From NCBI GenBank assembly GCA_040390725.1, contig JAZJXT010000002.1, positions 28,450 to 92,449 of the forward strand: a stretch of DNA of 64,000 nt, read 5' to 3'. Below, piece by piece: positions 9,595 through 64,000 of this stretch. The translations under genes and the position numbers were made by a program. The notes below the pieces were generated by a model that saw only the letters and a program-made list of their open reading frames with translations, had not been told where the DNA came from and did not search any database. Origin of the DNA: Patescibacteria group bacterium (lineage in GTDB: Bacteria > Patescibacteriota > Minisyncoccia > Phycocordibacterales > UBA9973). The stretch's first letter is position 1. Every line of letters begins with the position of its first letter.

Positions 9595-9600
9595 AAAACC

Positions 9601-32820: not shown

Positions 32821-34065
32821 ATGAAAGACAAAAAAATCGAGCAAGCTATAAAAGGCGAAGCCAAGAGGCAATCAGAAGGTTTGGAACTTATTCCATCGGA
32901 AAACTATGTTTCCGCTGATGTTTTGACTGCAAATGGGTCTATTTTTACCAATAAATACTCTGAAGGGTACCCAGGCAGGCGCTATTATGGAGGGCAAGAT
33001 TTTACTGATACTGTGGAACGTCTCGCTATCGAGCGTGTTTGTAAACTTTTTAAATGTAAATTTGCTAATGTTCAGCCTCACTCCGGTGCACCGGCGAACC
33101 TCGCTGTATATGCGGCGCTTCTCGAGCCGGGGGATACAGTTCTCGGAATGGATCTTTCGCACGGAGGGCATTTGACGCATGGGCACCCTATGACTTTGCC
33201 AGCAAAGATTTATAAATTCGTCACTTATAAAATGAAGAATCCTGACACGGGTGAGATTGATTATGAAGATATGCTAAGAGTAGCAAAAGAAACTAAACCA
33301 AAATTAATCATTGCCGGATTTTCTGCATACTCTCGTACTCTTGATTATAAAAAATTCGTGGATATCGGGCGTGAAGTCGGAGCTATAACTATGGCAGACA
33401 TGGCGCACATCGCGGGGCTCATAGCGGCGGGAGCACTTAGGAATCCTTTTGATGATGGTTTTGATATTATTACTTCGACAACGCACAAGACCTTGCGTGG
33501 ACCTCGCGGAGGAATTATTTTGACTCGTGAGAGTGAAGAGATTGCTAAAAAAATAGATAAAGCTATTTTCCCCGGCATCCAAGGCGGTCCGCATATGCAT
33601 ACTATCGCTGCGAAGGCTGTGGCTTTCGGAGAAGCTCTTACTCCTGCATTTAAAAAATATGCAAAACAAATTTTGAAAAATGCGAAAGCGATGGAGAAAG
33701 TGATGAAGAAAAATAATGTGCGAATGATCGGTGGAGGTACTGATAACCATTTGATACTTGCTGATGTTTTTGGATCCCTCGGCGTCACAGGAAAAGAAGC
33801 GCAGACTGTTCTCGATGAAGTCGGTATCACACTTAATATGAACTCTATCGCAGGAGATACTAGAAAACCGCTCGATCCTTCTGGTATTCGTTTTGGTACG
33901 CCGGCTATCACTACTCGAGGATTTAAAGAAAAAGAATGTACGCTAGTAGCAGAGCTTCTGCTTGAAACTTTGAGAAACAAAGACAATAAAAAGAAAAAAG
34001 AAGAAATCTCCAAAAAAATAAAACAACTCGCAAAGAAATTCCCAATACCTAAAAAGTTTGTATAA
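32821..34065 (+). CDS. glyA: serine hydroxymethyltransferase
   Basis: LELIPSENYVS, TTTHKTLRGPRGG (PLP lysine region). Confidence 0.95.
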   Translation: MKDKKIEQAIKGEAKRQSEGLELIPSENYVSADVLTANGSIFTNKYSEGYPGRRYYGGQDFTDTVERLAIERVCKLFKCKFANVQPHSGAPANLAVYAALLEPGDTVLGMDLSHGGHLTHGHPMTLPAKIYKFVTYKMKNPDTGEIDYEDMLRVAKETKPKLIIAGFSAYSRTLDYKKFVDIGREVGAITMADMAHIAGLIAAGALRNPFDDGFDIITSTTHKTLRGPRGGIILTRESEEIAKKIDKAIFPGIQGGPHMHTIAAKAVAFGEALTPAFKKYAKQILKNAKAMEKVMKKNNVRMIGGGTDNHLILADVFGSLGVTGKEAQTVLDEVGITLNMNSIAGDTRKPLDPSGIRFGTPAITTRGFKEKECTLVAELLLETLRNKDNKKKKEEISKKIKQLAKKFPIPKKFV

Positions 34066-34129: not shown

Positions 34130-34834
34130 ATGGTAAAAAAGGGCAAACTCATAGTAATAGATGGTACGGATGGTAGTGGAAAGGCTACACAGACTGATTT
34201 ATTGATTAAACAGCTAAAAAAAGAGGGAAAAAAGGTGAAAGTTGTGGATTTCCCGGAATATTATGATAATTTTTTTGGTGATTTTATCGGACACTGTCTC
34301 TCCGAGCAGTATTTTAATTTTGTGAAAGTGCATCCCAAGATAGCTTCGGTGCTTTACGCTGCGGATCGTTTTGAGTCAAAAGAAAAAGTGGAGAGTTGGC
34401 TGAAAGAAGGCAATATAGTTATTGCAAACAGATACGCGAGCGCAAACCAAATACATCAAGGCGGGAAAATTTCAAATACAAAAAAGCGTGAAGCATTTAT
34501 CAAATGGCTGGATGAGATGGAATATAAAGTTTTTAAAATTCCTCGTCCCGATGCGGTATTTTATTTGAGTGTGCCTATATCTATAGTTTTGAAATTAATA
34601 AAAGAAAGAAATAATGGAAAAAGGCGAAAATATTTAGGCAAGAAAAAAACAAACAAAACTGATGTGCACGAAAAAGATGTGCACTTTTTGGAGAATTCTA
34701 GAAAGAGCGCATTATGGCTCGCCAAGACGCAAAAAAATTGGATAAAAATCGAGTGTGTGAAAAATGGAGATTTACTGTCTAGAGAAATTATCCATCAAGA
34801 AATTTACGAAAAAATTAAAAAAGTTTTGAAATAA
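34130..34834 (+). CDS. tmk: thymidylate (dTMP) kinase
   Basis: P-loop IVIDGTDGSGKATQ, DRY-like ADRF, extended LID region. Confidence 0.75.
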   Translation: MVKKGKLIVIDGTDGSGKATQTDLLIKQLKKEGKKVKVVDFPEYYDNFFGDFIGHCLSEQYFNFVKVHPKIASVLYAADRFESKEKVESWLKEGNIVIANRYASANQIHQGGKISNTKKREAFIKWLDEMEYKVFKIPRPDAVFYLSVPISIVLKLIKERNNGKRRKYLGKKKTNKTDVHEKDVHFLENSRKSALWLAKTQKNWIKIECVKNGDLLSREIIHQEIYEKIKKVLK

Positions 34835-34838
34835 ATTT

Positions 34839-35261
34839 ATGAAAATAAAAGTTAAAAAATTAAAAGATGGGGCGAAGTTACCGACTTATCATCATCCGGG
34901 TGATGTCGGTATGGATATGTATGCCATGGAGGAAATTATTGTTGGCCCTGGTGAGCACGCGCGTATATGGCACGGTTTTGCTTTGGAATTCCCGATAGGA
35001 TATGGCGCATTGGTCATGGATAAGGGCAGTATTTCAAAGGCAGGATTGCATACTATGGGGGGAGTTTTTGATGCCGGGTATAGGGGTGAATACAATACGC
35101 ATTTGGTAAATTTATCTGACAAGCCTTATACTATAGAAGTGGGGGATAAAGTTTCGCAACTTGTGATCACACCTATTGTTGTTGCTGACTTAGAAGAAGT
35201 TGATTCACTTAGCGAGTCGGCTCGCGGTGAGGGAAGGTTTGGGAGTACGGGTAAAAAATAA
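34839..35261 (+). CDS. dut: dUTP diphosphatase
   Basis: Five dUTPase motifs including C-terminal RGEGRFGSTG. Confidence 0.9.
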   Translation: MKIKVKKLKDGAKLPTYHHPGDVGMDMYAMEEIIVGPGEHARIWHGFALEFPIGYGALVMDKGSISKAGLHTMGGVFDAGYRGEYNTHLVNLSDKPYTIEVGDKVSQLVITPIVVADLEEVDSLSESARGEGRFGSTGKK

Positions 35262-35262
35262 A

Positions 35263-37050
35263 ATGAGTATAAAAAATAAGCTAGAAAATTTAATAAAAGA
35301 TGCGTTAAAAAAGTTAGAAATGAATTCGCCAGACGGCGAAGTTAATTTTGTCGTAGAACATCCGGAAGATTTTAAGAATGGGGATTACTCTACGAATGTG
35401 GCATTGGTTTATGCTAAGAAATTAAAAATGAAACCTGTTGATTTGGCGGAGAAAATTTTAGCAGAACTTTATGAAGATACAGATGAAAAGGGCATTAAGG
35501 GTGTGGAAAATATAGAGATAGCCGGCGCGGGGTTTATAAATTTTTATTTAACACGTGAATTTTTCAGTGATTCTATAAAAGATATTTTACACAAGAATGA
35601 AGACTGGGGCAGGAATAATTTATTGGAAGGAAAAAAAGTAATGGTGGAATACACTCAGCCGAATCCTTTCAAGCCTTTTCACATAGGGCATTTGATGAGC
35701 AATGCCATCGGAGAGTCAGTTTCGAGAATTGTAGAATTCTCCGGCGCGAAAACTATCCGTGCGAATTATCAGGGTGATGTTGGTCCGCATATTGCGAAAG
35801 CGATTTATGGGATTATGAAAGACCCTGAGTACTTAGAGGCAAGACCTCTCAGTAGAGGTCTTGCCTCTAAGTCGGCATCTTGGATTGGGGAGTGTTATTC
35901 AAAAGGCAGTGATTTGTATGACAATGATCCGGAAGCAAAAAAAGAAATTGATGTAATAAATAAAAAAGTTTACGACAAGAGCGATGAAGAAATAAATAAA
36001 GTTTATGATTGGGGGAGGAAAGTCACCCTCGAAGCATTTGAAGAACTTTATAAAATTCTCGGCACGAAATTCGACTATTATTTTTTTGAAAGCGAGATGG
36101 CACCGATAGGTGAAAAAATTGTCCGCGCAAATGTGCCGAATGTTTTTGAAGAATCCGACCCCACACCAGAGCAAGCTCAGTACGGGGCAAGAGGCGCTAT
36201 TATTTTTCGTGCTGAGAAGTATAACCCTAAATTGCATACGCGAGTGTTCTTAACTTCACAAGGCATACCGCTTTATGAGACGAAGGAAATAGGTTTGACG
36301 ATGACGAAATTTGAAAAAGAAAATCCTGATATTTCTATTGTTGATACAGCTATTGAGCAAGGCGAATATATGAAAGTTGTTCAGCAGGCTATCGCACTCA
36401 TGCATCCGGAATTGGAAAAGAAAATGTTGCATATCACGCACGGTATGATGCGCCTCGCATCGGGCAAAATGTCTTCCCGAAAAGGTAACGTAGTCACAGG
36501 TGAGTCATTGTTGCGAGATTCTATGGATGTCGTATTGGAAAAAATCCAAGATAGAGATTTTACCGAAGAAGAAAAGAAAAAAGTCTCAGAAGTCGTCGGC
36601 GTGTCGGCGCTCAAATATTCTATTTTGCGTTCTTCTGTCGGCTCGGATATTGTTTATGATTTTGATAAATCAATTTCGTTTGAAGGGGATTCCGGCCCAT
36701 ATTTACAATATTCCGCTATCCGCGCGAAATCAATCCTCGCAAAAGCCAAAAGTGAAAATTTGGAGGCTAAACCTCCAAAAGAAGTTCCAGAACAAATTTC
36801 AGATTTAGAAAAAATTCTTTATCGTTTCCCCGAAGTTGTCGCGCGCTCATATGAAGACCTCGAACCGCACAATATCGCCACATATTTGACCGAGCTTTCA
36901 TCATCCTTCAATTCTTTTTACGCCAATACACAAATCTTAAACAATGAAGATAAATTTTCTTCATATTATTTAGCACTCACCAAAGCATTTTTCATCACAA
37001 TGCAAAACGGCCTTTGGCTTTTGGGAATTAAATTGCCGGAGAGGATGTAA
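35263..37050 (+). CDS. argS: arginyl-tRNA synthetase
   Basis: Start at the ATG at 35263 (MSIKNKLENL), 1 nt after the dut stop. PNPFKPFHIGHLMSNAIG (HIGH), DALR-type C-terminus. Confidence 0.9.
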   Translation: MSIKNKLENLIKDALKKLEMNSPDGEVNFVVEHPEDFKNGDYSTNVALVYAKKLKMKPVDLAEKILAELYEDTDEKGIKGVENIEIAGAGFINFYLTREFFSDSIKDILHKNEDWGRNNLLEGKKVMVEYTQPNPFKPFHIGHLMSNAIGESVSRIVEFSGAKTIRANYQGDVGPHIAKAIYGIMKDPEYLEARPLSRGLASKSASWIGECYSKGSDLYDNDPEAKKEIDVINKKVYDKSDEEINKVYDWGRKVTLEAFEELYKILGTKFDYYFFESEMAPIGEKIVRANVPNVFEESDPTPEQAQYGARGAIIFRAEKYNPKLHTRVFLTSQGIPLYETKEIGLTMTKFEKENPDISIVDTAIEQGEYMKVVQQAIALMHPELEKKMLHITHGMMRLASGKMSSRKGNVVTGESLLRDSMDVVLEKIQDRDFTEEEKKKVSEVVGVSALKYSILRSSVGSDIVYDFDKSISFEGDSGPYLQYSAIRAKSILAKAKSENLEAKPPKEVPEQISDLEKILYRFPEVVARSYEDLEPHNIATYLTELSSSFNSFYANTQILNNEDKFSSYYLALTKAFFITMQNGLWLLGIKLPERM

Positions 37051-39628: not shown

Positions 39629-42600
39629 ATGTTCAAAATTAAATACTCGAAGTTTTTGTTTCTATTTTTTACTTTCTCTGTCGCCGTTGGCATTTTTTCT
39701 TTTTCACATCAGGCTTTCGCTTCGACTGTTGTGACTGACGATATTATTGATGATACGACTTGGACTCTGGATGGCAGTCCGTATTTGGTGGATGGTTATG
39801 TGCCTGTTTATTCTACGCTTACCATAGAGCCGGGCGTAGTAGTGCAAAATGGCAGTTTAGATATTTTTGGAACTTTAAAGGCCGAAGGCACGAGCGACCA
39901 GCATATTTCTTTTACTTCATCTATAATTTATTTTGACGGATCTACAGGATCTTCCTTAAAATATATTGATATTTCTCACGAGCATGTCGGGATGTCTTTT
40001 TGGGCTAGTGATGCATCTATTTCAAATATTAATGCGCAGTATAATGATACGGATTTATATATAGAAGGAGGTAGTAGTATTTCTATTTCTGATTCTAGTT
40101 TTTCCAATGCGAAATACGATTCTATTTATATAGAGGACGGTTCTTTGAGTGCAAATAATTTAACAATTGAGGGAGGGTCGCAATATTATGAAGCAGTCCG
40201 GGTGCGGTTTGGTCAGGTTTCTATGGTTGATTCAGTTATTCAAAATATACCTGACGGCGAAGCTTTGGCTGTCGGTAGACTTAGCAATGTAGACCTGGAG
40301 AGAACAAATATTAAAAATGTGGGCAGAGGATTCTGGGTTGATGAGAGTAGTACTACGAATATAAATGATTCTACTTTGGACAACACTTACGTTTACGCTT
40401 TTGCTTGCGCATCTTTTAATGCTGATAATAGTATATTTAAAAATAGTATTTGGGGCGCGATTATTGATTTTGGACAAGGATGTGAATTTAACATTGTAAA
40501 TAGTAAATTTATAAATAATCAAGACGGATTTTATATTTTTAACAATGGAAGTTATCCGGAATCTGTCTACAATATTTCCAATTCTGAAATTTCCGGCAAC
40601 ACACAATACGGAGTTTATTCTCAAGCTTCGTATCCTGTAGATTTTACAAAAACTTGGTGGGGCGATGCATCCGGTCCGCAACATCCGGACTTAAACTCCA
40701 CCGGCCTTGGCAACGCAGTTTCTGATGGCGTCCTTTTTGACCAGTGGTGCAAAAATGAAACTTGTAAAACAAAAACCCCGGTGATAATTATTCCGGGAAT
40801 CTTAGGGTCAATTCTTTCTAAGAATTATGGGGATAGTAGCGAGATGTGGCCGAATATAAATACATTACTCACTTCTTTCTTTGATGGATTTATGGATGAT
40901 TTGGCTTTGCAGGCGGACGGCACCGAAGACCCGGCCATGCCTGTGAGCGTCGGCGATATTTTGCGCAAGGTTGATGTATTGGGTAATACTGTCACAGATA
41001 CTTGGTCAGGACTTATAGATAAATTAACTACATCTGTGATCGGCGGATATGTCGAAGGCACCGACCTTTTTGTTTTTCCTTATGATTGGCGCAAGAGTGA
41101 TGCAGATACAGCAGTGCTTTTGAAAGATAAAATTGACGCAGTGCTGGCACAAACAGGCGCGGAAAAGGTGGATATTATTTCACATTCAATGGGTGGGCTT
41201 ATTGCCGAGAAATATATTGCGGATAACGGTAAAGATAAAATAAATAAATTATTTTTCATAGGCACGCCTCACCTCGGCGCGCCAAAGGCATTCAAGGCTT
41301 TGATGTATGGGGATGATATGAATATAAAATTTGGAAGTTATAGTGTTCTTTATCCAGCTGAAATGAAAAAGATTTCTCAAAATATGCCGTCTGCTTTTGA
41401 TTTATTACCGAGTCGTATTTATGTGGATGGTAATCCGAATGCGAGTATAGTTTTGCCGAATCAATATGTCTATGACGCAGTCGCAGGTAAATGGCTCAAT
41501 TATGATGAGACGAAAAATTTTATGATTACGGATGGCAGGAATGCGGATATTTTTCCACAAGCGGATGACTTGCATCAAGTAGTGGATAAAGTAGACCTGA
41601 GCGGAGTGGATGTTTATAATTTTGCCGGTTGTGGGATGACGAAAACTCTTTCTACCATTACTGCTAAAAAAGAAAAATCCTGGACTTCGCTTTGGCAAAA
41701 AGTCGTGGATGATTATGATTTAGGTTTTACCAATGGTGATGAGACTGTGCCACTGATTTCCGCTTCCGGTCAGTATCAAAATCAATATTTTATAAAAGGC
41801 GCGACTCATTCAGAGTTGCCATCTACTGCTGGAGTGCCAGAAACTATTTTAGCTTTGCTTTCGGGGGATGCTGTTCCTATGGAAACAAATATTTCTACTG
41901 ATAGTAATAATTTCTGTGATGTGACAGGGCGTGTAGTTTCTACACATAGTCCTGTGACTATGCATATTTATGATGACAATGGACACCACACAGGACCGAC
42001 AGATAATGGCGACATAGAATACGGCATTCCTGGTGTGTCGTATGATGTGATAGGGGGTGATGCTTTTGCGTTCTTGCCTGAAGGTGGTAATTATAAAGTA
42101 GTAAATAAAGCGACGGACACGGGAGCGTATGATTTTTATATAAAAGATATAGGGGCGAATGATGCAATAACAAATGAAACATATTTTAATGAAATTCCTC
42201 TCACGAATTTGGCATCAAGTTCAGAAATAGATTTTACACCTTCAGGTAATGATTATAAAATTAAAATGGATCAAGATGGCGATAATACTTTTGAAAAAGA
42301 ATTTGCGCCATCGTCCAGCCTGGGTGCAACGCAAGCAAATGATTTAACTGCGCCGGAAACTACAGCGAGTGTCGCAGGCAGGAATCTTTCTTTTTCTTCG
42401 ACTGATGAAAATTCCGGAGTATTAAAAACAGAGTATTCTATTGATGATGGTGTTAGTTGGGTTTTATATAATTCTGCATTCAATGCATCAGGAAAAACTG
42501 TGAAATATTTTTCTACTGATAAGGCTGGCAATATTGAGAGTATAAAAGAAATAATAGTGCCGAAACGTCATACTGCGTATGTTGAAGATGTAGTGGAAGA

Positions 42601-42958
42601 CCCTAAGCCGGTTGAAAATCAAGAAGTCGCTCATTCTTCAGAATGCAGTGGGTGTAATGTTTTATCTCAAAATCCTGTTGAAATAACTCCTATTGCAAAG
42701 GAAATTGTTGCCGTGGCTACAGTAACATCGGATAAAATAATTATTCCCGAGCAGAAAAAAGTTTTATCTAAAAATCAAAAAACTATTGTCAAATCTGAGC
42801 AAGTTTTTAAAGCTAGCAAGGAGGTGGCAAAAAATGCTAAAATAGAAGTATTGCCGGAAATGATTACGGCGTCAGCCATAAATGCCGACAATAGCGCAGG
42901 ATTTTGGAGCAGAGTCGGGAATTTTATTAAAAGCATATTTTACAGAAAGAAAAAATAA
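39629..42958 (+). CDS. large secreted protein (1109 aa): parallel beta-helix repeats + lipase/esterase (alpha/beta-hydrolase) domain + Ig-like 'DKAGN' module
   Basis: Signal peptide ending HQAFA|ST. Beta-helix-type repeats (residues ~60-330). Lipase motifs PVIIIPGILGS, IISHSMGGLIAEKY (GxSxG), GTPHLGAP. C-terminal YSIDDGVSWVLY...STDKAGNIE. Confidence 0.7.
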   Translation: MFKIKYSKFLFLFFTFSVAVGIFSFSHQAFASTVVTDDIIDDTTWTLDGSPYLVDGYVPVYSTLTIEPGVVVQNGSLDIFGTLKAEGTSDQHISFTSSIIYFDGSTGSSLKYIDISHEHVGMSFWASDASISNINAQYNDTDLYIEGGSSISISDSSFSNAKYDSIYIEDGSLSANNLTIEGGSQYYEAVRVRFGQVSMVDSVIQNIPDGEALAVGRLSNVDLERTNIKNVGRGFWVDESSTTNINDSTLDNTYVYAFACASFNADNSIFKNSIWGAIIDFGQGCEFNIVNSKFINNQDGFYIFNNGSYPESVYNISNSEISGNTQYGVYSQASYPVDFTKTWWGDASGPQHPDLNSTGLGNAVSDGVLFDQWCKNETCKTKTPVIIIPGILGSILSKNYGDSSEMWPNINTLLTSFFDGFMDDLALQADGTEDPAMPVSVGDILRKVDVLGNTVTDTWSGLIDKLTTSVIGGYVEGTDLFVFPYDWRKSDADTAVLLKDKIDAVLAQTGAEKVDIISHSMGGLIAEKYIADNGKDKINKLFFIGTPHLGAPKAFKALMYGDDMNIKFGSYSVLYPAEMKKISQNMPSAFDLLPSRIYVDGNPNASIVLPNQYVYDAVAGKWLNYDETKNFMITDGRNADIFPQADDLHQVVDKVDLSGVDVYNFAGCGMTKTLSTITAKKEKSWTSLWQKVVDDYDLGFTNGDETVPLISASGQYQNQYFIKGATHSELPSTAGVPETILALLSGDAVPMETNISTDSNNFCDVTGRVVSTHSPVTMHIYDDNGHHTGPTDNGDIEYGIPGVSYDVIGGDAFAFLPEGGNYKVVNKATDTGAYDFYIKDIGANDAITNETYFNEIPLTNLASSSEIDFTPSGNDYKIKMDQDGDNTFEKEFAPSSSLGATQANDLTAPETTASVAGRNLSFSSTDENSGVLKTEYSIDDGVSWVLYNSAFNASGKTVKYFSTDKAGNIESIKEIIVPKRHTAYVEDVVEDPKPVENQEVAHSSECSGCNVLSQNPVEITPIAKEIVAVATVTSDKIIIPEQKKVLSKNQKTIVKSEQVFKASKEVAKNAKIEVLPEMITASAINADNSAGFWSRVGNFIKSIFYRKKK

Positions 42959-44903: not shown

Positions 44904-44977
44904 ATTTAAAAAACTCGCATCTTTTTAATGTAAATAATCATTTGTAATTCAGCCCTATTTTGTGCTATATTTCAGTA

Positions 44978-47900
44978 ATGTCTGAAGAAAAAAATAATAA
45001 AAATACAAAATCAATAAATGCAGAGAGGGAGGAGAAAATTCTGAAATTCTGGGCGGAAAATAAAATTTTTGAAAAATCTATTGAAAAAGAAGCGCCGAAG
45101 GGGAATTATGTTTTTTATGATGGTCCGCCTTTTGCAACGGGGTTGCCACACTACGGGCATATCTTGGGAAGCACTGTGAAAGATGTCATCGGGCGGTATC
45201 AGACGATGCGTGGATTCCGTGTGCCTAGGCGTTGGGGTTGGGATTGTCACGGTTTGCCTATTGAAAATATCGTGGAAAAAGATTTGGGAATTTCCGGACG
45301 GAAAGCCATTGAAGAATTTGGTATTGATAAATTTACCGAGCACGCGCGGAGTAAAGTGCTGACTTATGTGGAAGAATGGCGAAAGACTGTGAACCGCATG
45401 GGGCGATGGGTGGATTTTGATAATTCTTATAAGACAATGGACAATACTTTTATTGAAAGTGTGTGGTGGGCGCTCGGCGAATTGCATAAAAAAGAATTGT
45501 TGTATGAGGGTGTGCGAGTACTCGCGTATTGTCCGAGGTGTGAGACGCCTATCGCAAATTCTGAAATTGCGATGGATAATAGTTATAAAGATATTACTGA
45601 TATTTCTGTGTACGTGAAGTTTAAGATAATCACCGACCAAGAAATTTCTAGGTCCTCGGGTCGCGTCGCTTCTGAGGTTTTTCCTGCGGAAAAACAAACG
45701 AAGCTAGCTCAACCAGACGCTAAAAATTCCTTGGTCGGCTCGTATCTTTTAGCTTGGACGACGACGCCGTGGTCTTTGCCGGGGGATACTGCTCTAGCGA
45801 TAAATAAAAATATAAAATATGTGAAAGTTGAACACAATGGCGAATTTTATATTTTGGCGGAAGATAGAATAAAATTCGTGCCGACATTGAAAGATATAGA
45901 ATTTAAAAAAGGAGAAAATATGTGGGATGTAAATGCGGAGGAACTTATTGGTAAAAGTTACGAACCGCCTTTTGATTATTATAAAAATGCAGACTTGCCG
46001 CACAAAGAAAATATTTGGAAAATTTGGCATGCAGATTTTGTGACTATTGATGCGGGTACGGGTATAGCGCACGAGGCGCCGGCTTTTGGTGAGGAAGATA
46101 TGAACTTGGCAAAGGAAAATAATATTCCTTTTATTCGACATGTCGAGCCGAACGGAGTTTTCTCAAAAGAAGTGACGGATTTCGCTGGAACAAAAGTAAA
46201 ACCAAAAGAAGACCATCAGTCGGGAGATGTTTTGATAATAAAATATTTAGCAGGGAAAGGTTTGCTTTTTGCGAAAGAAAAAATAATCCACTCGTATCCG
46301 CATTGTTATAGATGTGATACGCCTTTGCTTTATTACGCTTTGCCGTCGTGGTTTGTAAATATTCAAAAAGTAAAAAATGATTTGCTTGAAAAAGCGCAAG
46401 AGATGAACTGGATTCCGGCGCATTTAAAAGACGGACGTTTTAAAAACATAATGGAAAACGCGCCGGATTGGACTATTTCTAGGAATAGATATTGGGCAAG
46501 TCCTTTGCCTATTTGGAAATCAGAAAGTGGAAAAATAATGATGGTGAGTTCACTCGAAGATTTGAGAAATAAAACAAAAAAATCAGGAAATAAATTTTTC
46601 GTAATGCGTCACGGGGAAGCAGATCATAACGTGAAACAGCTTTGCAGTAGTGGACCAAATGACCCGCATCATTTGACGGAAAATGGAAAAGCAAAGGCAA
46701 AAGAATCCGCCCAGAAATTAAAAAATGAAAAAATAGACTATATATATGTATCGCCATTTGTGCGCACAAAAGAAACAGCAGAAATTGTCGCAAAAGAAAT
46801 AGGTTTATCCTCGGATAAAATAATTATAGATAATCGTTTACATGAAGTAAATTGGGGGGATTTTGATGGTAAAACTTTTGCAGAAGGCATGGCTTTTGTT
46901 AAAGAAAAAATGATGACCGCAGATGTACCATTGCCAAATGGCGAGTGTTGGCAGGATGTGAAAAATAGAGTGGGGGATTGTATTTACGACGTTGATTCAA
47001 AACATAAAAATTCTAATATTTTATTTGTCGGGCATGGAGGCACATTGGAAATCTTGCCAACTATTGCAAAAGGTTTTAACCAAACAGAAACTATGCAAGA
47101 AGTAATGCGGACAGTAGGAGGGAAAGTTTATGTCCCTGGAGAATTTTATGAATTAAATTTTGTTTCCATACCGCATAATGCAAAATATGAACTCGACCTG
47201 CACCGACCTTATATAGATGCAATAATTTTGGCAGACGAAAAAGGAGAAGAGTATAAAAGAATTCCTGAAGTTATCGATTGTTGGTTTGAGTCCGGCTCGA
47301 TGCCTTTTGCGCAGGACCATTTTCCATTTGAGAATCCAAATTGGCAGAAAGAAAATTTCCCCGCAGGTTTCGTGGCGGAATACATAGCGCAGACGAGGAC
47401 ATGGTTTTACTATACGCATGCAATTTCTACGATGCTCTTTGAGCATGCGCCATTTAAAAATGTCGTGACCACTGGCACAGTGCTCGCGGAAGACGGCAGT
47501 AAAATGTCTAAATCAAAAAATAATTTCCCTGACCCTTGGATATTGTTTGAAAAATACGGCGTGGATGCTTTGCGTTTTTATTTGATGTCTAGTCCTTTGA
47601 TGAAAGGGGAAGATGTGAACTTCTCTGAAAAATCTGTGCAGGAAATCTCCAGTAAAATAATAGGCCGACTCGATAATGTTTTTGCTTTTTATGAATTATA
47701 CAGAGACAGAAATTTAGAAAGTGAAAATGCAAAACCTGAAAGTAAAAATGTTTTGGATATTTGGATTCTATCTCGATTGGAACAATTGATTTCTGAAGCA
47801 ACAAAAAATATGGAAGCTTATGATTTGGCTTTGGCGACGCGACCTTTTGAATTATTTATGGAAGACCTTTCGACTTGGTATTTGCGTCGTTCACGCGAGA

Positions 47901-48568
47901 GATTAAAAGATGGTGACAAAGATGCCAGACAAACTTTATATTTTGTTTTGAAAAATACTGTAAAATTACTCGCTCCTTTTACACCGTTTATTTCGGAAGA
48001 TATTTGGGCAAAATTAAGAAACGAAAACGATGTAGAGAGTGTGCATTTAGCTGAATGGCCAGAAGTATCAGTGGTTAATATTTCTACGGATGAAATGCAA
48101 ATTGCAAAGATGCAGATTGTAAGAAATTTTGTTTCTCTTGGCTTAAAAGAAAGACAAAAAGCGGGAATCCCTGTCAGGCAACCGCTTAAATCAATCAGTG
48201 TTTCAAATATGGTTTTAGAAAGTTATTACAAAGATCTTATTAAAGATGAGTTGAATGTAAAAGAAGTTTTGGAAATATCTTTAAATGAAGGTGAAGTAAA
48301 ACTTGATACAGAAATAACTCCAGAATTAAAAATGGAAGGGGATTATCGCGAGCTAGTGCGAGCTGTGCAAGACATGCGAAAAGCAAAAGGTTTAATGCCG
48401 AGCGATATTATTACGTTGACTATTGATACTGATACAAAAGGTCAAGAAATAATAAATAAATTTAAAGAAGAATTCTTGAAAGTTGTCGGCGCGAAAGAAA
48501 TAATGTTTGGCGAAAATGATGGAATGGAAGTAAAAATTGATTCTCTAATTTTTAAGATTAAAATATAA
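44978..48568 (+). CDS. ileS: isoleucyl-tRNA synthetase carrying an internal histidine-phosphatase-like domain
   Basis: PPFATGLPHYGHILG (HIGH), KMSKSKNN, WTISRNRYWASPLPIW, zinc knuckles CPRCETP/CYRCDTP. ATG at 44978. Residues ~520-740 form an RHGE...HGG phosphatase-like insertion. Confidence 0.9.
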   Translation: MSEEKNNKNTKSINAEREEKILKFWAENKIFEKSIEKEAPKGNYVFYDGPPFATGLPHYGHILGSTVKDVIGRYQTMRGFRVPRRWGWDCHGLPIENIVEKDLGISGRKAIEEFGIDKFTEHARSKVLTYVEEWRKTVNRMGRWVDFDNSYKTMDNTFIESVWWALGELHKKELLYEGVRVLAYCPRCETPIANSEIAMDNSYKDITDISVYVKFKIITDQEISRSSGRVASEVFPAEKQTKLAQPDAKNSLVGSYLLAWTTTPWSLPGDTALAINKNIKYVKVEHNGEFYILAEDRIKFVPTLKDIEFKKGENMWDVNAEELIGKSYEPPFDYYKNADLPHKENIWKIWHADFVTIDAGTGIAHEAPAFGEEDMNLAKENNIPFIRHVEPNGVFSKEVTDFAGTKVKPKEDHQSGDVLIIKYLAGKGLLFAKEKIIHSYPHCYRCDTPLLYYALPSWFVNIQKVKNDLLEKAQEMNWIPAHLKDGRFKNIMENAPDWTISRNRYWASPLPIWKSESGKIMMVSSLEDLRNKTKKSGNKFFVMRHGEADHNVKQLCSSGPNDPHHLTENGKAKAKESAQKLKNEKIDYIYVSPFVRTKETAEIVAKEIGLSSDKIIIDNRLHEVNWGDFDGKTFAEGMAFVKEKMMTADVPLPNGECWQDVKNRVGDCIYDVDSKHKNSNILFVGHGGTLEILPTIAKGFNQTETMQEVMRTVGGKVYVPGEFYELNFVSIPHNAKYELDLHRPYIDAIILADEKGEEYKRIPEVIDCWFESGSMPFAQDHFPFENPNWQKENFPAGFVAEYIAQTRTWFYYTHAISTMLFEHAPFKNVVTTGTVLAEDGSKMSKSKNNFPDPWILFEKYGVDALRFYLMSSPLMKGEDVNFSEKSVQEISSKIIGRLDNVFAFYELYRDRNLESENAKPESKNVLDIWILSRLEQLISEATKNMEAYDLALATRPFELFMEDLSTWYLRRSRERLKDGDKDARQTLYFVLKNTVKLLAPFTPFISEDIWAKLRNENDVESVHLAEWPEVSVVNISTDEMQIAKMQIVRNFVSLGLKERQKAGIPVRQPLKSISVSNMVLESYYKDLIKDELNVKEVLEISLNEGEVKLDTEITPELKMEGDYRELVRAVQDMRKAKGLMPSDIITLTIDTDTKGQEIINKFKEEFLKVVGAKEIMFGENDGMEVKIDSLIFKIKI

Positions 48569-59257: not shown

Positions 59258-59298
59258 CCCGATGTCGGACATATGGGAACCATATGTCCGACATCGGG
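59258..59298 (+). promoter_or_regulatory. perfect 19-bp inverted repeat (3-nt loop) between ssb and rpsR
   Basis: cccgatgtcggacatatgg gaa ccatatgtccgacatcggg; 13 nt upstream of the rpsR ATG. Confidence 0.5.
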
Positions 59299-59604: not shown

Positions 59605-60279
59605 ATGAAAAATACATCATTTTTTGAACAAGTTTCAGCGATTATTAAAGAAAAGTCTATATTAAACCACCCTTTTTATAAGTGTTGGCAAATGGGCAAG
59701 CTGACAAAGGAAGAAATGCAGGATTATACAAAGCAATATTATCACTTAGAAAATGCTTTTCCTCGTTTTATGTCCGGTATTCACACCAATTGCGAAAATG
59801 CAGATATGCGTCAAAATATGTTGAAAGATTTAATCGGCGAAGAAGGCGAAGCCACAAATCATGTCAATCAATTATTTGCTTTTGGAAAAGCATTCGGTTT
59901 ATCAAAAGAAGAACTTATGAACTCTAGGGCGAATCAAAATACAACTGATGCTATTAATACAATTTTGTCTTTGACTCAAGATAAAGATATCAATAAAGGT
60001 TTGGCTGCGCTTGCGACCTATAAAGAACAAATTGCGAAAGTCGCCGTGACAAAAGAATTCGGCTTGAAAGAATTTTATGGAGTAGAGGGCGACGAAGCTT
60101 TGCAATTCTTCCGAACTCACGCAAAGAAAAATGTCATTTGGCACGAAATGCTCGATGAGATGATAAATGATAAAGAACAACCTATTGCATTAAATTCTGT
60201 TGGGACTCTTTGTGATGCATGGTGGCACTATTTGGATGGCGTTACTACTCCTGCGATGAGAGAAATGGTTTGTGCTTAA
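59605..60279 (+). CDS. heme-oxygenase-like fold protein of the PqqC/TenA/CADD family
   Basis: HPFYKCWQMGKLTKEEMQDYTKQYYH... helical pattern with conserved E/H positions typical of the family. Confidence 0.55.
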   Translation: MKNTSFFEQVSAIIKEKSILNHPFYKCWQMGKLTKEEMQDYTKQYYHLENAFPRFMSGIHTNCENADMRQNMLKDLIGEEGEATNHVNQLFAFGKAFGLSKEELMNSRANQNTTDAINTILSLTQDKDINKGLAALATYKEQIAKVAVTKEFGLKEFYGVEGDEALQFFRTHAKKNVIWHEMLDEMINDKEQPIALNSVGTLCDAWWHYLDGVTTPAMREMVCA

Positions 60280-60291
60280 TTAGATTTTCTA

Positions 60292-60996
60292 ATGCAAATC
60301 AAAGCGATAAAAACAAAAGTTTTCAAAGAAAACGAAGACTTGTTTTTATTTGTGCTCAAATATATAAAAAAAATTCCGGAGAATTCTGTGCTAGTAGTTA
60401 CTTCAAAAATTGTTTCTTTGGCTGAAGGCAGGGCAGTGCCATTGAAAGATGAAAAACAAAAAATAAAAATAATAAAACAAGAAAGTTCTTTCGCGCTAAA
60501 AACAAAAATAACTTGGCTCACTATTAAGGATGGGATGGTGATGGCCGCCGCTGGTGTGGATGAATCAAATGCTGACGGGAAATTAATTTTACTGCCAAAA
60601 GATAGTTTCAAATCTGCGGAAATTTTGCGTAAAAAATTGATGCAGAAATTTAAAGTAAAAAATATTGGTGTATTAATTACTGATTCTAGGCTGATGCCCC
60701 TGCGCGCAGGAGTCGTCGGTGTCGCGCTCGGTTATGCAGGATTTAAAGGCATTAAAAATTATATCGGGAAACGCGACATTTTCGGTAGGAAATTCAAAAT
60801 GGAGCAGACGGACGTGGCAGATAGTTTAGCGACTGCAGCGGTATTGTGTATGGGGGAAGGGGCTGAATGCCAACCGTTGGCTTTGATGACGGACGTGCCG
60901 GCCGTTTTTACAAATAAAATAAACAAGAAAGAATTAATAATAGATCCGAAAAAGGACTTGTATCTGCCTTTGTTTGGGAGTATATTAAAGAAATGA
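60292..60996 (+). CDS. CofE-like gamma-glutamyl ligase family protein
   Basis: VVTSKIVSLAEGR...AAAGVDESNADGK...LITDSRLMPLRAGVVGVALGYAGF pattern of F420-0:gamma-glutamyl ligase (CofE) homologues. Confidence 0.55.
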   Translation: MQIKAIKTKVFKENEDLFLFVLKYIKKIPENSVLVVTSKIVSLAEGRAVPLKDEKQKIKIIKQESSFALKTKITWLTIKDGMVMAAAGVDESNADGKLILLPKDSFKSAEILRKKLMQKFKVKNIGVLITDSRLMPLRAGVVGVALGYAGFKGIKNYIGKRDIFGRKFKMEQTDVADSLATAAVLCMGEGAECQPLALMTDVPAVFTNKINKKELIIDPKKDLYLPLFGSILKK

Positions 60997-61499
60997 AAAA
61001 GGTTGTCAAAAAAATGGTGAAAAGTAAAAGACCGTCTTGGGATGAGTATTTTTTGCAAATGGCAGAGCTGGTGGGTACTAGAGGCACGTGCGACAGGGGG
61101 CACGCCGGTATTGTGATTGTGAAAGATAAAAGAATGCTCGCGACTGGGTATGCAGGTTCACCTGTGGGCTTAGCGCATTGCGATGATGTCGGGCACGAGA
61201 TGCATATGGTGACAAATGAAGATGGTTCGTGTTCACAACATTGCGTGCGCACTACGCATTCGGAAACCAATGCCATTGCGAACGCCGCGCGTTTCGGTGT
61301 TTCCGTAGATGGAGCGACTATGTATTCTACGATGGTGGCTTGTTATGCTTGCGCGAAAGTCGTCGTAAATGCGGGGATAAAAAGATTTGTAGCATTGAAG
61401 GACTATCACAAAAGCGCCAATACAAAAAAGATTTTCAGAGAAGCAGGAATAAAATTGGAAATAATAAATAAAGAAATTACTAAATACCCAAATCAATAA
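60993..61499 (+). CDS. dCMP deaminase (cytidine/deoxycytidylate deaminase family)
   Basis: HSETNAI and ...CYACAKV zinc-binding motifs. Start overlaps the upstream stop (ATGA). Confidence 0.85.
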   Translation: MKKVVKKMVKSKRPSWDEYFLQMAELVGTRGTCDRGHAGIVIVKDKRMLATGYAGSPVGLAHCDDVGHEMHMVTNEDGSCSQHCVRTTHSETNAIANAARFGVSVDGATMYSTMVACYACAKVVVNAGIKRFVALKDYHKSANTKKIFREAGIKLEIINKEITKYPNQ

Positions 61500-61509: not shown

Positions 61510-61836
61510 ATGATAGATCTCAAACAATTACAAAAAGAAATAATGCAAAATAAGTTAGAGAAGGGTTTTAATACTGATGTGACCCATGAATTTTGTCGAG
61601 CCTACGAAGAACTCTCGGAGGCATTTTCAAAATATAATAAAGGTCAAGACGGGATAGCCGAAGAATTTGCAGATGTCGCCATATTTTTACTAGGTATGTG
61701 CGAAACACTAGGTTTTGATTTGGAGAAAGAAATAAAAAATAAAGTTCAAAAAAATAAAAATAGAAAATATAGAAAAGAAAAATCACCAGACGGCAAAGAT
61801 ATTTTTATACGTATAAAGACCGACGAAGATCCTTAG
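61510..61836 (+). CDS. MazG-like nucleoside triphosphate pyrophosphohydrolase (small)
   Basis: EELSEA...EEFADVAIFLLGMCETLGFDLE...K...KNRKY EExxE/ExxD pattern. Confidence 0.6.
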   Translation: MIDLKQLQKEIMQNKLEKGFNTDVTHEFCRAYEELSEAFSKYNKGQDGIAEEFADVAIFLLGMCETLGFDLEKEIKNKVQKNKNRKYRKEKSPDGKDIFIRIKTDEDP

Positions 61837-62063: not shown

Positions 62064-62630
62064 ATGAAAAGAATAGTTATCATGGCTGTAATCAGCTTGA
62101 GTATTTGTTTATCCGTTTTTTCTCAGGAAAATAAAAATGGATGGTTTGCAAATCTTCAAACGCAAACAGGTGACAGTATTAGGTTATACTTAATTTCTAA
62201 TATAAGTGTAGCTTATACAAAACAGTTCAATAATGTTGCAAAAGCAGCTGGACCTTTAACAAAAAGTGATGACGAAATTTTTAAGGTTGCTGAGCTCTAC
62301 AAGGCACCAGAGAAAGATTCGATTGAAACAGTTGTTTTAGTTAACTTTCCTAATGGTGATGGAAGTTGGTCTAAAGCTCTCAGCTGGGGAGTTAAGAATA
62401 ATCTTCGTATAACAGACCCACACCTTGTTTTTGCAATCGCAGAGAAGTTCCCAAAGCTTAACTGGAAACCTCCTTTTGGTAGTTGGACATACCTTATTGA
62501 GACAACAGGTTGCACTTTTAATGAAAGTAGACAAATGTGCTGTGTTTTGTTTAATGGTTTGGATAGAGCATCTTTATTGCTTTACCAAAAAGCCGGGCAA
62601 AAAAATACCTGGTTTGCTTTTCGAAAATAA
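62064..62630 (+). CDS. secreted hypothetical protein (188 aa)
   Basis: Signal peptide MKRIVIMAVISLSICLSVFS|QE; no recognisable domain. Confidence 0.45.
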   Translation: MKRIVIMAVISLSICLSVFSQENKNGWFANLQTQTGDSIRLYLISNISVAYTKQFNNVAKAAGPLTKSDDEIFKVAELYKAPEKDSIETVVLVNFPNGDGSWSKALSWGVKNNLRITDPHLVFAIAEKFPKLNWKPPFGSWTYLIETTGCTFNESRQMCCVLFNGLDRASLLLYQKAGQKNTWFAFRK

Positions 62631-62657
62631 AAAGTAATTTAAAAAAGAGAAATCTTC

Positions 62658-62688
62658 CCTGTAATAAAATACAGGGTTTTTTATTTTT
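62658..62688. terminator. bidirectional rho-independent terminator between convergent genes
   Basis: ccctgta ataaaa tacaggg followed by ttttttatttttt; A-run upstream. Confidence 0.6.
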
Positions 62689-62694: not shown

Positions 62695-63243
62695 TTACTT
62701 TTTTTCATAAACCACAAAAGAATACGGCAAGGGGTTTTTGTCGTCGGGTTGGTGATTTTCGCGCCAGGTTTCTTTCCAGATGTTTTTATCTATTGCAGGG
62801 AAAAACACATCGGCAGTTTTGTCTTCGGCACTTATTTCTGTGATGTCTAGGTGCGTCGCCACTGTATTTATGGCTTGTCGGTAAATATCCGCTCCGCCTA
62901 TTATGTAAACTTTTTCTTCCCCCTCTCCTTTATAAGGAGAGGGCTGGGGTGAGGTGCTTACTTTTTTAACTGCCTCCTCTAAAGAATGCACTACGTCTAT
63001 GCCGAGGCGTAGATAGCTTTTATCTCGTGTGATTATTATATTTCTGCGGGATGGCAAAGGTCGTCCAAGTTCGCCAGAAGGGCTTTTGCCCAATGATTCA
63101 AAAGTTTTCCTGCCCATTATTACCGGATGCCCCAAAGTTTTATCTCGAAAATATTTTTGATCTGCCGGCATTTTCCAAACTAAATCATTACCCTTGCCGA
63201 GCTCATTATTTTTTCCTATGGCTGCTATTAGTGAAATTATCAT
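62695..63243 (-). CDS. folA: dihydrofolate reductase
   Basis: MIISLIAAIGKNNELGKGNDLVWKMPADQKYFRDKTLGHPVIMGRKTF. Contains the in-frame palindromic insert (STSPQPSPYKGEGEE). Confidence 0.9.
   Translation of the reverse strand: MIISLIAAIGKNNELGKGNDLVWKMPADQKYFRDKTLGHPVIMGRKTFESLGKSPSGELGRPLPSRRNIIITRDKSYLRLGIDVVHSLEEAVKKVSTSPQPSPYKGEGEEKVYIIGGADIYRQAINTVATHLDITEISAEDKTADVFFPAIDKNIWKETWRENHQPDDKNPLPYSFVVYEKK
62919..62955 (-). repeat. RPE-like palindromic element, copy 3 (in-frame within folA)
   Basis: Reverse complement is cctcaccccagccctctccttataaaggagagggg, identical to the pgk copy; same orientation relative to its host gene. Confidence 0.6.
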
Positions 63244-63264: not shown

Positions 63265-64000
63265 TTAAACCGCAATCGGGGCTTTGATGCCTTCGTGCGG
63301 ATTGTAATCAATTAATTCAAAATCTTCTATAGTAAAATCTTCTATATTTTTTTTATTTGGATTTATTTTCATTTTCGGTAATGGGCGTATGTCACCACGG
63401 CGGGAGAGTTGCAGTTTGGCTTGTTCTAAATGATTGGAATACAAATGCACATCACCTCCGGTCCAGACAAATTCTCCGGCTTCGAGTCCGCAGATTTGCG
63501 CCATCATCATGGTGAATACGGAATACGATGCGATATTGAAAGGCAAACCTAAAAAAGTATCGCAGCTTCTTTGGTAAAGCTGGCAAGATAATTTTCCATC
63601 AGCTACATAAAATTGAAAAAAACAATGACACGGAGGCAGGCCGGCTTTTGACATCTCTTCAATGTCGGCTACATTCCAAGCGGATACAATCAGTCGGCGA
63701 GAGTCGGGAGTATTTTTAATTTGTTCAATGACATTTTTTAATTGGTCAATGTGTTTTCCATTTGGCGCTGGCCAATTCCTCCATTGGTATCCGTAAATAG
63801 GTCCGAGGTTGCCATATTCTTTTGCAAAATTTTCATCAGTTTTTACTTTTTCCACAAATTCCGCCATACCTTTTTTCCATTCTTCACCATTGATTTTCGG
63901 AATTGGTAAATTATTTCTTTTCAAATACGCTTTGTAAGGCCATTCATCCCAAATGTGCACATTGTTGTCCGCAAGATATTTTAAATTCGTATCGCCTCGC
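63265..64000 (-). CDS. thyA: thymidylate synthase (ThyA), N-terminus beyond window end
   Basis: [23 protein letters not shown] (catalytic Cys), DVHLYSNH. The ORF continues upstream past 64000 (IWDEW region is internal in ThyA). Confidence 0.9.

What the first reader, a model, noticed from the sequence alone, without database searches (positions are those of the whole stretch)
59605..60996. CADD/PqqC-like oxygenase and CofE-like gamma-glutamyl ligase adjacent to dCMP deaminase, MazG, folA and thyA: possible non-canonical route to a pABA-glutamate/folate moiety
Established: Chlamydia CADD (same heme-oxygenase-like fold family) is a self-sacrificing pABA synthase, and CofE-type enzymes ligate L-glutamate to a carboxylate. 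Seen: homologues of both sit next to the dTMP-cycle genes (dCMP deaminase 60993-61499, MazG-like, folA, thyA), while glyA, tmk and dut lie elsewhere in the window. Inference: the pair may supply or tailor the pABA-Glu part of folate, or salvage folate fragments, in an organism otherwise lacking folate biosynthesis.
Basis: inference. Interest (0 to 1): 0.6.

Follow-up and report, generated by a model that had tools for sequence, protein, structure and literature searches.

The report
Chlamydia-type folate genes in a Patescibacterium
The two genes are the tiny-genome bacterium's versions of the unusual Chlamydia enzymes that make the pABA and glutamate parts of folate; this is a known system in a new host, but the pABA enzyme has an unexpectedly rebuilt metal site.

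Summary
A 224-aa CADD-like protein and a 234-aa CofE-like ligase form a tight operon with dCMP deaminase and a MazG-like gene, facing folA and thyA. glyA, tmk and dut lie about 25 kb upstream.

The pair matches the already known chlamydial folate module: CT610/CADD, a self-sacrificing pABA synthase, and CT611/FolC2, a CofE-family enzyme that replaces FolC. NCBIfam already has models for both.

The organism does not lack folate synthesis. What is very likely the same MAG carries folP-folB-folK on another contig. In six sister loci folP sits directly upstream of the CADD gene, once as folP-folB-folK-CADD.

The ligase is a core Patescibacteria gene (>4,200 relatives). It is probably misnamed "F420 ligase" in public annotation. 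The CADD gene is a rare accessory (55 relatives).

One feature appears new. The Patescibacteria CADD clade keeps the sacrificial Tyr and Lys. However, three of the six canonical metal-ligand positions are changed (E142K, D178N, H181W/Y with a new adjacent His), and a near-invariant Trp is lost.

Verdict: a new variant of a known kind, of moderate interest.

The parts
59605..60279 (+). CADD-family heme-oxygenase-like protein (224 aa). Putative self-sacrificing pABA synthase of the ligand-variant Patescibacteria clade (K140, N176, W179-H180 in place of CADD E142, D178, H181).
   Evidence: Pfam and NCBIfam hits. PDB sequence hits to pABA synthases. Residue map. AF2 model pLDDT 96 and Foldseek best match CtCADD.
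60292..60996 (+). CofE-family gamma-glutamyl ligase (234 aa). Putative FolC2-type dihydrofolate synthase / folylpolyglutamate synthase.
   Evidence: PF01996 at 3e-39. TIGR04132 scores 208 bits against 144 for CofE TIGR01916. CofE structures match at 5e-25. More than 4,200 relatives, always in thyA/folA clusters in the loci examined.
60993..61499 (+). dCMP deaminase, which supplies dUMP. Its start overlaps the ligase stop by 4 bp.
   Evidence: PF00383 at 2.5e-19. ComEB-like TIGR02571 at 3e-36, below cut-off.
61510..61836 (+). MazG-like nucleotide pyrophosphohydrolase (108 aa). Last conserved gene of the + strand operon.
   Evidence: PF12643 at 1.7e-7. Found in the same position in all related clusters.
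62657..62676 (+). Terminator-like hairpin followed by a T-run, between the convergent + strand genes and folA.
   Evidence: This is a consensus match only.
62695..63243 (-). Dihydrofolate reductase FolA.
   Evidence: PF00186 at 5e-49.
63265..64000 (-). Thymidylate synthase ThyA. The N-terminus lies beyond the window end.
   Evidence: PF00303 at 4e-84, TIGR03284 at 4e-97. The frame stays open to base 63999.
32821..34065 (+). Serine hydroxymethyltransferase GlyA. A distal member of the folate/thymidylate cycle.
   Evidence: PF00464 at 8e-153.
34130..34834 (+). Thymidylate kinase Tmk.
   Evidence: PF02223 at 2e-21.
34839..35261 (+). Trimeric dUTPase Dut (140 aa).
   Evidence: ORF and diagnostic motifs. 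Not scanned against Pfam.

Best explanation
The pair is the Patescibacteria counterpart of the chlamydial ct610-folC2 module. The steps below are marked as shown or inferred.

1. The CADD-like protein makes p-aminobenzoate from its own Tyr25 (ring) and Lys150 (amine) in an O2-dependent, single-turnover reaction. In doing so it replaces PabA/B/C. This is inferred from homology, conserved residues and gene context.
2. FolP joins that pABA to hydroxymethyl-dihydropterin diphosphate, which FolB and FolK produce. FolP/FolB/FolK are encoded with folB-folK on another contig of what is very likely the same genome, and folP sits directly upstream of the CADD gene in sister genomes. The presence of these genes is shown. 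That they belong to the same genome is inferred.
3. The CofE-like ligase adds L-glutamate to dihydropteroate and then to tetrahydrofolate. It therefore acts as dihydrofolate synthase / folylpolyglutamate synthase in place of FolC. This is inferred from the best HMM match and from context, and was shown only for Chlamydia CT611.
4. FolA reduces dihydrofolate. GlyA loads the one-carbon unit. ThyA uses it to make dTMP from the dUMP supplied by dCMP deaminase, Dut and MazG.

The operon therefore co-expresses cofactor supply and substrate supply for thymidylate synthesis. The ligase is the ancestral, near-universal part of this cluster in Patescibacteria. folP-CADD is an occasional add-on that replaces a Vut_1-family transporter gene at the same position. 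This suggests a switch from uptake to synthesis.
For: Family assignment:
- TIGR04305 at 2e-55 and TIGR04132 at 1e-61 are the best NCBIfam models for the two proteins.
- The best solved relatives are the pABA synthases 9pj4, 1rcw and 8va9. The best fold match is CtCADD at TM 0.88-0.93.

Catalytic residues:
- Y27, Y43, Y47, K152, E81, H88 and H174 equivalents are invariant in all 21 clade members.
- Tyr27 and Lys152 are the sacrificial residues in CADD, and Tyr25/Tyr41/Lys159 are essential in NePabS (PMC9522330, 10.1101/2022.08.01.502304, PMC11965152, PMC13108848).

Gene context of the clade:
- folP lies immediately upstream of the CADD gene in L002, L003, L082/L083, L093 and L094. L085 has folP-folB-folK-CADD.
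- By contrast, FolP lies within the fetched flank at only 2 of about 76 canonical CADD loci from other phyla.

Same-genome folP-folB-folK:
- MES2023833.1 compared with MES2023421.1/422.1, the same run SRR26324628, and GC 0.383 against 0.375.
- All three proteins exceed the NCBIfam equivalog cut-offs.
- FolP, CADD and ligase are each 70-72% identical to their L003 counterparts.

Ligase:
- It is conserved at 65-83% identity in every thyA/folA cluster examined.
- No F420 biosynthesis gene was found among the roughly 50 window proteins scanned.
- CT611 complements an E. coli folC mutant (PMC1971073, PMC4161248).
Against: - Both proteins score below the curated cut-offs of their best models: 187.7 against 200, and 208 against 350.
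- The CADD-like protein lacks three of the six canonical 3His/3carboxylate ligand positions. It also lacks a Trp that is invariant in canonical homologues. Its chemistry may therefore differ from CADD's.
- Assigning folP-folB-folK to the same genome rests on accession proximity, a shared sequencing run and composition. It does not rest on an assembly record.
- The first pterin steps (folE, folQ) and the absence of pabABC and folC could not be checked.
- Two clade members from Peribacteria-like genomes (L004, L005) have no folate gene within the fetched flanks.
- No biochemical data exist for any Patescibacteria member.
Confidence: 0.68

Rival explanations
1. The pair works alone in an organism without folate biosynthesis. 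CADD makes pABA and the ligase joins it directly to glutamate, or the pair repairs or salvages pABA-Glu fragments. The product is then completed by a partner organism or by an unknown enzyme.
For: No folP, folB, folK or folE lies in the 64-kb window, and probably none lies on its 98.9-kb contig. CPR genomes are generally reported to lack cofactor biosynthesis while keeping folA/glyA/folD (PMC11974145).
Against: folP-folB-folK comes from the same run, with accession numbers that fit the same MAG. folP is adjacent to the CADD gene in six sister loci. CT611 replaces FolC on the normal substrates (PMC1971073). The ligase occurs in thousands of genomes without any CADD, so its substrate cannot depend on CADD.
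Confidence: 0.06
2. The ligase is only a folylpolyglutamate synthase that traps salvaged folate. The ligand-variant CADD-like protein no longer makes pABA. It is then either a cofactor-less or mononuclear oxidase with another substrate, or a non-catalytic relic.
For: The ligase is near-universal, and in most relatives it sits next to a Vut_1-family transporter instead of folP-CADD. Three of the six metal ligands and the conserved Trp92 are replaced. The fold also supports metal-free enzymes such as PqqC and TenA. In the window the CADD gene is separated from folP.
Against: The sacrificial Tyr and Lys, and Tyr43/Tyr47, are invariant across a clade that has diverged to 45% identity. The substitutions themselves are invariant (K140 and H180 in 21/21), which indicates selection and not decay. 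It is precisely this variant clade that is tightly linked to folP or folP-folB-folK. No pabABC-like gene was seen in any of these folate clusters.
Confidence: 0.14
3. The ligase is a genuine CofE that glutamylates coenzyme F420, as NCBI and JGI name it, and its position next to folate genes is coincidental.
For: The PF01996 hit. TIGR01916 CofE at 4e-42. CofE crystal structures are its only solved relatives. Public names include 'coenzyme F420-0:L-glutamate ligase'.
Against: The CofE score (144) is below its cut-off (180) and below the FolC2-type model (208). Synteny with dcd-mazG-folA-thyA is invariant in every locus examined. No other F420 gene was found in the window or in the Pfam-annotated flanks of the related loci.
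Confidence: 0.02

Closest known systems
[quoted passage not shown]
   Same: The fold is the same (TM about 0.9). Identity is 29-31%. The sacrificial Tyr27 and Lys152, plus Tyr43, Tyr47, Glu81, His88 and His174, are conserved. The gene is embedded in folate gene clusters and stands in for pabABC.
   Different: Glu142 becomes Lys. Asp178 becomes Asn (Asp in some members). His181 becomes Trp or Tyr, with a new invariant His one residue later and a 4-residue deletion. Trp92 becomes Leu and Leu91 becomes Gln. The score is just below the TIGR04305 cut-off. The host is a Patescibacterium and not a chlamydia or a nitrifier.
Chlamydia CT611 / FolC2 (COG1478, NCBIfam TIGR04132), the CofE-family replacement for FolC
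   Same: The domain is the same (PF01996), and TIGR04132 is the best-scoring NCBIfam model, aligned end to end. The gene sits next to a CADD gene and to folA inside a folate cluster. No canonical FolC was seen in the clusters.
   Different: The score is 208 bits against a cut-off of 350, so this is a separate clade. Here the gene belongs to a thymidylate operon (dcd, mazG, thyA). In most relatives it is paired with a transporter and an ATP-grasp ligase, not with folKP/folB. Gene order is CADD then ligase, whereas Chlamydia has folC2 then ct610.
Archaeal/actinobacterial CofE (F420-0:gamma-glutamyl ligase; PDB 2G9I, 7ULD)
   Same: The fold family is the same, with the GTP/Mn-dependent gamma-glutamyl ligase core conserved (5e-25).
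   Different: The score is below the CofE equivalog cut-off. There is no F420 gene context, and the folate/thymidylate context is conserved.
Class Ie ribonucleotide reductase R2e (metal-free, DOPA radical)
   Same: This is an analogy only. R2e is a radical-generating protein derived from a dimetal ancestor. Three metal-binding residues are substituted, one of them Glu to Lys, and it occurs in reduced-genome bacteria (PMC11846895).
   Different: The fold is unrelated (ferritin-like). There is no evidence here for a modified tyrosine or for an activating flavoprotein.

Membership tests
CADD-type self-sacrificing pABA synthase (TIGR04305, HDO superfamily) | Seven-helix heme-oxygenase-like fold closest to CtCADD | tested here: met
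   AF2 model pLDDT 96.2. Foldseek top hits are 8va9/1rcw at TM 0.88-0.93 and rmsd 1.4-1.7 A, ahead of PqqC and TenA.
CADD-type self-sacrificing pABA synthase (TIGR04305, HDO superfamily) | Sacrificial Tyr27 and amine-donor Lys152, plus essential Tyr43 | tested here: met
   Y25, K150 and Y41 are invariant in all clade members. Their roles are taken from PMC9522330, PMC11965152 and 10.1101/2022.08.01.502304.
CADD-type self-sacrificing pABA synthase (TIGR04305, HDO superfamily) | 3-His/3-carboxylate dimetal ligand set (CT610 E81, H88, E142, H174, D178, H181) | tested here: not met
   Only E79, H86 and H172 are kept. The other positions are K140, N176 and W179, with H180 adjacent. The alignment has no gaps between the flanking invariant anchors. 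The 3H/3C rule comes from PMC13108848 and PMC11965152. The residue numbers are from my knowledge of 1RCW and fit the conservation pattern (93 of 126 representatives).
CADD-type self-sacrificing pABA synthase (TIGR04305, HDO superfamily) | Score above the curated NCBIfam cut-off | tested here: not met
   187.7 bits against a cut-off of 200. NCBI does give the 71%-identical P0012 this family name.
CADD-type self-sacrificing pABA synthase (TIGR04305, HDO superfamily) | Location in a folate biosynthesis gene cluster | tested here: met
   In the window it lies next to the FolC2-like gene, folA and thyA. In sister loci it lies next to folP or folP-folB-folK.
CADD-type self-sacrificing pABA synthase (TIGR04305, HDO superfamily) | pABA formation / complementation of pabABC mutants | not testable with these tools
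   This needs an experiment.
FolC2 (CofE-family folate glutamyl ligase, TIGR04132 / COG1478) | PF01996 domain, with the FolC2-type model scoring best | tested here: met
   PF01996 at 3e-39. TIGR04132 at 208 bits (full length) against CofE TIGR01916 at 144.
FolC2 (CofE-family folate glutamyl ligase, TIGR04132 / COG1478) | Score above the curated cut-off | tested here: not met
   208 against 350. The protein belongs to a distinct Patescibacteria clade.
FolC2 (CofE-family folate glutamyl ligase, TIGR04132 / COG1478) | Clustered with folate genes in a genome without F420 genes and without FolC | tested here: inconclusive
   Folate clustering is met in every locus. No F420 gene or FolC was found in the window or flanks. 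The whole genome was not available.
FolC2 (CofE-family folate glutamyl ligase, TIGR04132 / COG1478) | DHFS/FPGS activity (folC complementation) | not testable with these tools
   Shown only for CT611 (PMC1971073).
CofE (coenzyme F420-0:L-glutamate ligase, TIGR01916) | Equivalog score and F420 pathway context | tested here: not met
   144 bits against a cut-off of 180.65. No cof/fbi genes were seen.
PqqC / TenA (other PF03070 members) | Equivalog-level similarity to PqqC, or closest fold being TenA | tested here: not met
   PqqC TIGR02111 scores 36 bits against a cut-off of 240. PqqC shows 17% identity and TenA 13-18%, both ranked below CADD.

The most novel reading that the evidence does not exclude
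The Patescibacteria CADD clade may be a pABA synthase whose oxidant is no longer a classical 3His/3carboxylate Fe/Mn pair. One option is a dimetal site bridged by a carbamylated Lys140. Another is a mononuclear or metal-free radical site in which Lys replaces the bridging Glu, as happened in the metal-free class Ie ribonucleotide reductase. Either way it would still perform self-sacrificial Tyr/Lys chemistry. In parallel, folP-CADD and a Vut_1-family transporter would be interchangeable cassettes at one locus. These would switch ultra-small bacteria between making and importing the folate precursor that the universal FolC2-like ligase then glutamylates.
Probability: 0.2. Interest if true: 0.75.

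Novelty: new variant of a known kind. Interest (0 to 1): 0.45.

Why it matters
1. Patescibacteria are usually described as unable to make cofactors. A recent survey of 4,581 genomes discusses only folA/glyA/folD (PMC11974145). The folP(-folB-folK)-CADD-FolC2 clusters found here indicate that a subset can assemble dihydrofolate itself, using the two non-orthologous replacements first found in Chlamydia.

2. Thousands of Patescibacteria proteins are publicly named 'coenzyme F420-0:L-glutamate ligase'. They are most likely folate glutamyl ligases. That changes metabolic reconstructions for this group, which would otherwise show no FolC and a spurious F420 gene.

3. The ligand-variant CADD clade is a natural experiment on the poorly understood self-sacrificing pABA synthase mechanism. 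It could show which metal-site features are dispensable.

Tried and rejected
- **TenA/PqqC identity for the 224-aa protein.** Rejected by sequence and by fold.
- **Genuine CofE.** Rejected on score and context.
- **FolC near the CADD gene in L082.** The Mur-ligase there is MurE (TIGR01085, 349 bits), not FolC.
- **FolP/FolB/FolK, Vut_1, ATP-grasp ligase or a second DHFR-like gene in the window.** tblastn found nothing. The only weak ATP-grasp hits fall in CarB.
- **Tetranucleotide composition as a test of same-genome origin for L092.** It does not discriminate. L092 gives r = 0.96, but unrelated Parcubacteria loci reach 0.98.
- **Extending the window contig with the look-up of encoding contigs.** Only a 3.6-kb Logan contig was retrievable.
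- **Context of the distant Lys-variant P0311.** The contig is only 2 kb and tells nothing.
- **Primary paper on the CADD Fe/Mn structure (PMC12186997).** Not held, so the ligand residue numbers rest on my knowledge plus the conservation pattern.
- **The helix break at residues 173-177 in the AF2 model.** I do not treat it as proof of a lost metal site, because apo HDOs unwind core helix alpha3 (PMC7848743).
- **Literature searches for CPR/Parcubacteria CADD or FolC2.** Nothing found.
Full report
**The observation**

The window is a low-GC stretch (about 37%) of a small-genome bacterium. Public records name the two proteins MES2023421.1 and MES2023422.1, from a 'Patescibacteria group bacterium' MAG, on a 98,911-bp contig.

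- The 224-aa protein (59605-60279) hits PF03070/PF14518.
- The 234-aa protein (60292-60996) hits PF01996.
- They are followed by dCMP deaminase (4-bp overlap) and a MazG-like gene (10-bp gap).
- These face folA and a thyA that runs off the window end.
- glyA, tmk and dut sit together at 32.8-35.3 kb.

**What the two proteins are**

NCBIfam already holds dedicated models, and they are the best hits.
- TIGR04305, 'CADD family putative folate metabolism protein': 2e-55, 187.7 bits, cut-off 200.
- TIGR04132, 'putative folate metabolism gamma-glutamate ligase': 1e-61, 208 bits, cut-off 350. The true CofE model scores only 144 bits, with a cut-off of 180.

For the first protein, the closest solved sequences are the pABA synthases 9pj4, 1rcw (CT610) and 8va9 (4e-33 to 1e-29). 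PqqC is 25 orders of magnitude weaker. An AlphaFold model (pLDDT 96.2) superposes best on CtCADD (TM 0.88-0.93, rmsd 1.4-1.7 A). PqqC, FlcD, UndA, BesC and TenA all rank lower.

**What is already known**

The literature shows this is the chlamydial module.
- De Crecy-Lagard et al. [quoted passage not shown] They showed that CT611, a COG1478/CofE homologue, complements an E. coli folC mutant (PMC1971073).
- Adams et al. (2014) showed that folB-folKP-folA-folC2-ct610 is one transcript. They also showed that CT610 replaces PabA, PabB and PabC (PMC4161248).
- Later work showed that CADD is a single-turnover Fe/Mn oxygenase. It excises its own Tyr27 and uses Lys152 as the amine donor (PMC9522330, 10.1101/2022.08.01.502304, PMC11965152, PMC13108848).

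**The organism is not folate-deficient**

The 64-kb window has no folP, folB, folK or folE. Relatives tell a different story.
- In L003, L093 and L094 the order is secE-nusG-rplK-folP-CADD-ligase-(ATP-grasp)-dcd-mazG-(folA, thyA).
- L002 and L082/L083 have folP-CADD.
- L085 has folP-folB-folK-CADD.

I then searched with the L003 FolP. The hit list held about 15 FolPs whose contig lengths equal those of CADD homologues. It also held one cluster member, P0296 = MES2023833.1, 'MAG: dihydropteroate synthase [Patescibacteria group bacterium]'.
- That accession is 412 numbers from the window's CADD.
- The protein is found in the same sequencing run (SRR26324628) as the window's genes.
- It heads a folP-folB-folK operon (L092), and all three products exceed the NCBIfam equivalog cut-offs.
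- GC content matches (0.383 against 0.375).
- FolP, CADD and ligase are each 70-72% identical to their L003 counterparts.

I conclude that the same genome very probably (I estimate about 80-85%) encodes the pterin-coupling steps. The window's CADD-ligase block is then a rearranged version of the folP-CADD-ligase cluster.

**The two genes have different histories**

The ligase has more than 4,200 relatives, and the top 120 are all 72-78% identical. In every locus examined it lies in the same dcd-mazG-folA-thyA cluster. The CADD-like protein has only 55 relatives in the same database. In an exhaustive scan of 1.84 billion cluster representatives it has only two close clusters.

Where folP-CADD is absent, the slot between rplK and the ligase holds other genes. 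There is a Vut_1-family transporter (TIGR00697, 119 bits) and often a DHFR/RibD_C-like gene. An ATP-grasp ligase related to cyanophycin synthetase, RimK and MptN often follows the ligase. Ligases from both cluster types are 65-83% identical, so they form one orthologue group.

I infer that the ligase glutamylates a pteroate or folate compound, whether that compound is made in the cell (folP + CADD) or imported.

**The new feature: a rebuilt metal site**

CADD homologues in other phyla number at least 569 species genomes, mostly as solo genes. They almost always keep the pattern Y27-Y43-E81-H88-E142-K152-H174-D178-H181: 78 of 87 in the fetched loci and 93 of 126 full-length representatives.

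All 21 members of the Patescibacteria clade, which spans 45-100% identity, differ in the same way.
- They keep Y27, Y43, Y47, E81, H88, K152 and H174.
- Lys stands at E142, where canonical sequences have Glu in 95 of 95.
- Asn or Asp stands at D178.
- Trp or Tyr stands at H181, followed by an invariant His and a 4-residue deletion.
- Leu stands at W92, where canonical sequences have Trp in 93 of 95.
- Gln stands at L91.

The alignment between the flanking invariant residues has no gaps, so the E142K assignment is robust. A distant representative, P0311 (35% identity), shows the same YKxQ / Hx3Dx2WH signature.

The AF2 model breaks the helix at residues 173-177. In metal-bound CADD core helix alpha3 is continuous, but apo HDOs unwind it (PMC7848743). 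This observation is therefore only suggestive.

It is this variant clade that is linked to folP: six of nine sequence-verified loci, against about 2 of 76 for canonical homologues. Loss of function is therefore unlikely. How the site works is open. It could be a carbamyl-lysine bridge, a mononuclear site, or a metal-independent site as in class Ie ribonucleotide reductase, where three metal-binding Glu residues are replaced, one by Lys (PMC11846895). These options are speculation.

**Mechanism, with what is shown and what is inferred**

Shown:
- gene content, order and conservation;
- family and fold assignment;
- the residue patterns;
- folP/folB/folK in sister clusters and in the same sequencing run.

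Inferred:
- pABA synthesis by self-sacrifice of Tyr25 and Lys150;
- condensation by FolP;
- glutamylation of dihydropteroate and tetrahydrofolate by the ligase;
- reduction by FolA;
- use of the cofactor by GlyA and ThyA, with dUMP supplied by dCMP deaminase, Dut and MazG.

Not assessable: the source of the pterin (folE/folQ), and the absence of pabABC and folC from the whole genome.

**Verdict**

Searches of the paper library found no description of CADD or FolC2 in CPR bacteria. The finding is best filed as a new variant of a known system. It has two useful by-products: a probable systematic misannotation of the ligase as an F420 enzyme, and a ligand-substituted clade of self-sacrificing pABA synthases.

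Noticed in passing
window 44960-48568 (+): The 1,202-aa isoleucyl/class-I tRNA synthetase carries a complete histidine-phosphatase domain (PF00300, 1.4e-34) at residues 547-707. The domain sits inside the catalytic tRNA-synt_1 domain, which is split into two stretches.
   Followed up: no
L086, L088, L090 (about 6850-9760 in each); compare L003, L093, L094: In most Patescibacteria relatives the slot between rplK and the ligase holds a Vut_1/queuosine-precursor-transporter-family gene, often followed by a 175-aa DHFR/RibD_C-like gene. An ATP-grasp ligase (cyanophycin synthetase/RimK/MptN-like) often follows the ligase. folP-CADD replaces the transporter at exactly this position in three loci. 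This suggests interchangeable uptake and synthesis cassettes, plus a second glutamylation step.
   Followed up: partly
window 60292-60996, and P0056-P0175: NCBI and JGI name this protein and many of its Patescibacteria relatives 'coenzyme F420-0:L-glutamate ligase'. Score and context point instead to a FolC2-type folate ligase, so this is probably a systematic misannotation.
   Followed up: partly
window 59258-59298: A perfect 19-bp inverted repeat with a 3-nt loop (CCCGATGTCGGACATATGG-TTC-CCATATGTCCGACATCGGG) lies between ssb and rpsR. It overlaps the first in-frame ATG of the rpsR ORF. It is far longer than a typical terminator stem.
   Followed up: no
window 62064-62630 (+): A 188-aa ORF with an N-terminal hydrophobic, signal-like segment sits between mazG and folA. 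It has no Pfam or NCBIfam hit. It is absent from the equivalent position in related clusters, where L090 has a DUF2207 gene.
   Followed up: partly
window 11187-17372 (+) and 39629-42958 (+): Two very large ORFs (2,061 aa and 1,109 aa) have signal-like N-termini. The first follows two unannotated membrane or secreted proteins and precedes a type IV pilus ATPase and pseudopilin genes. I did not scan either against family libraries.
   Followed up: no
L004 and L005 (CADD at 1200-1877 and 10001-10678): The Peribacteria-like subclade of the Lys-variant CADD (pattern ...K..N-Y-H) has no folate gene within the fetched flanks. It is instead followed by a conserved DprA-like gene and a large secreted protein. 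Its link to folate is therefore unverified.
   Followed up: no
window 35200-37050 (+) against 34839-35261: The longest ORF for arginyl-tRNA synthetase starts at a TTG that overlaps the end of dut by 62 bp. The real start is probably the ATG near 35263 (MSIKNK...).
   Followed up: no
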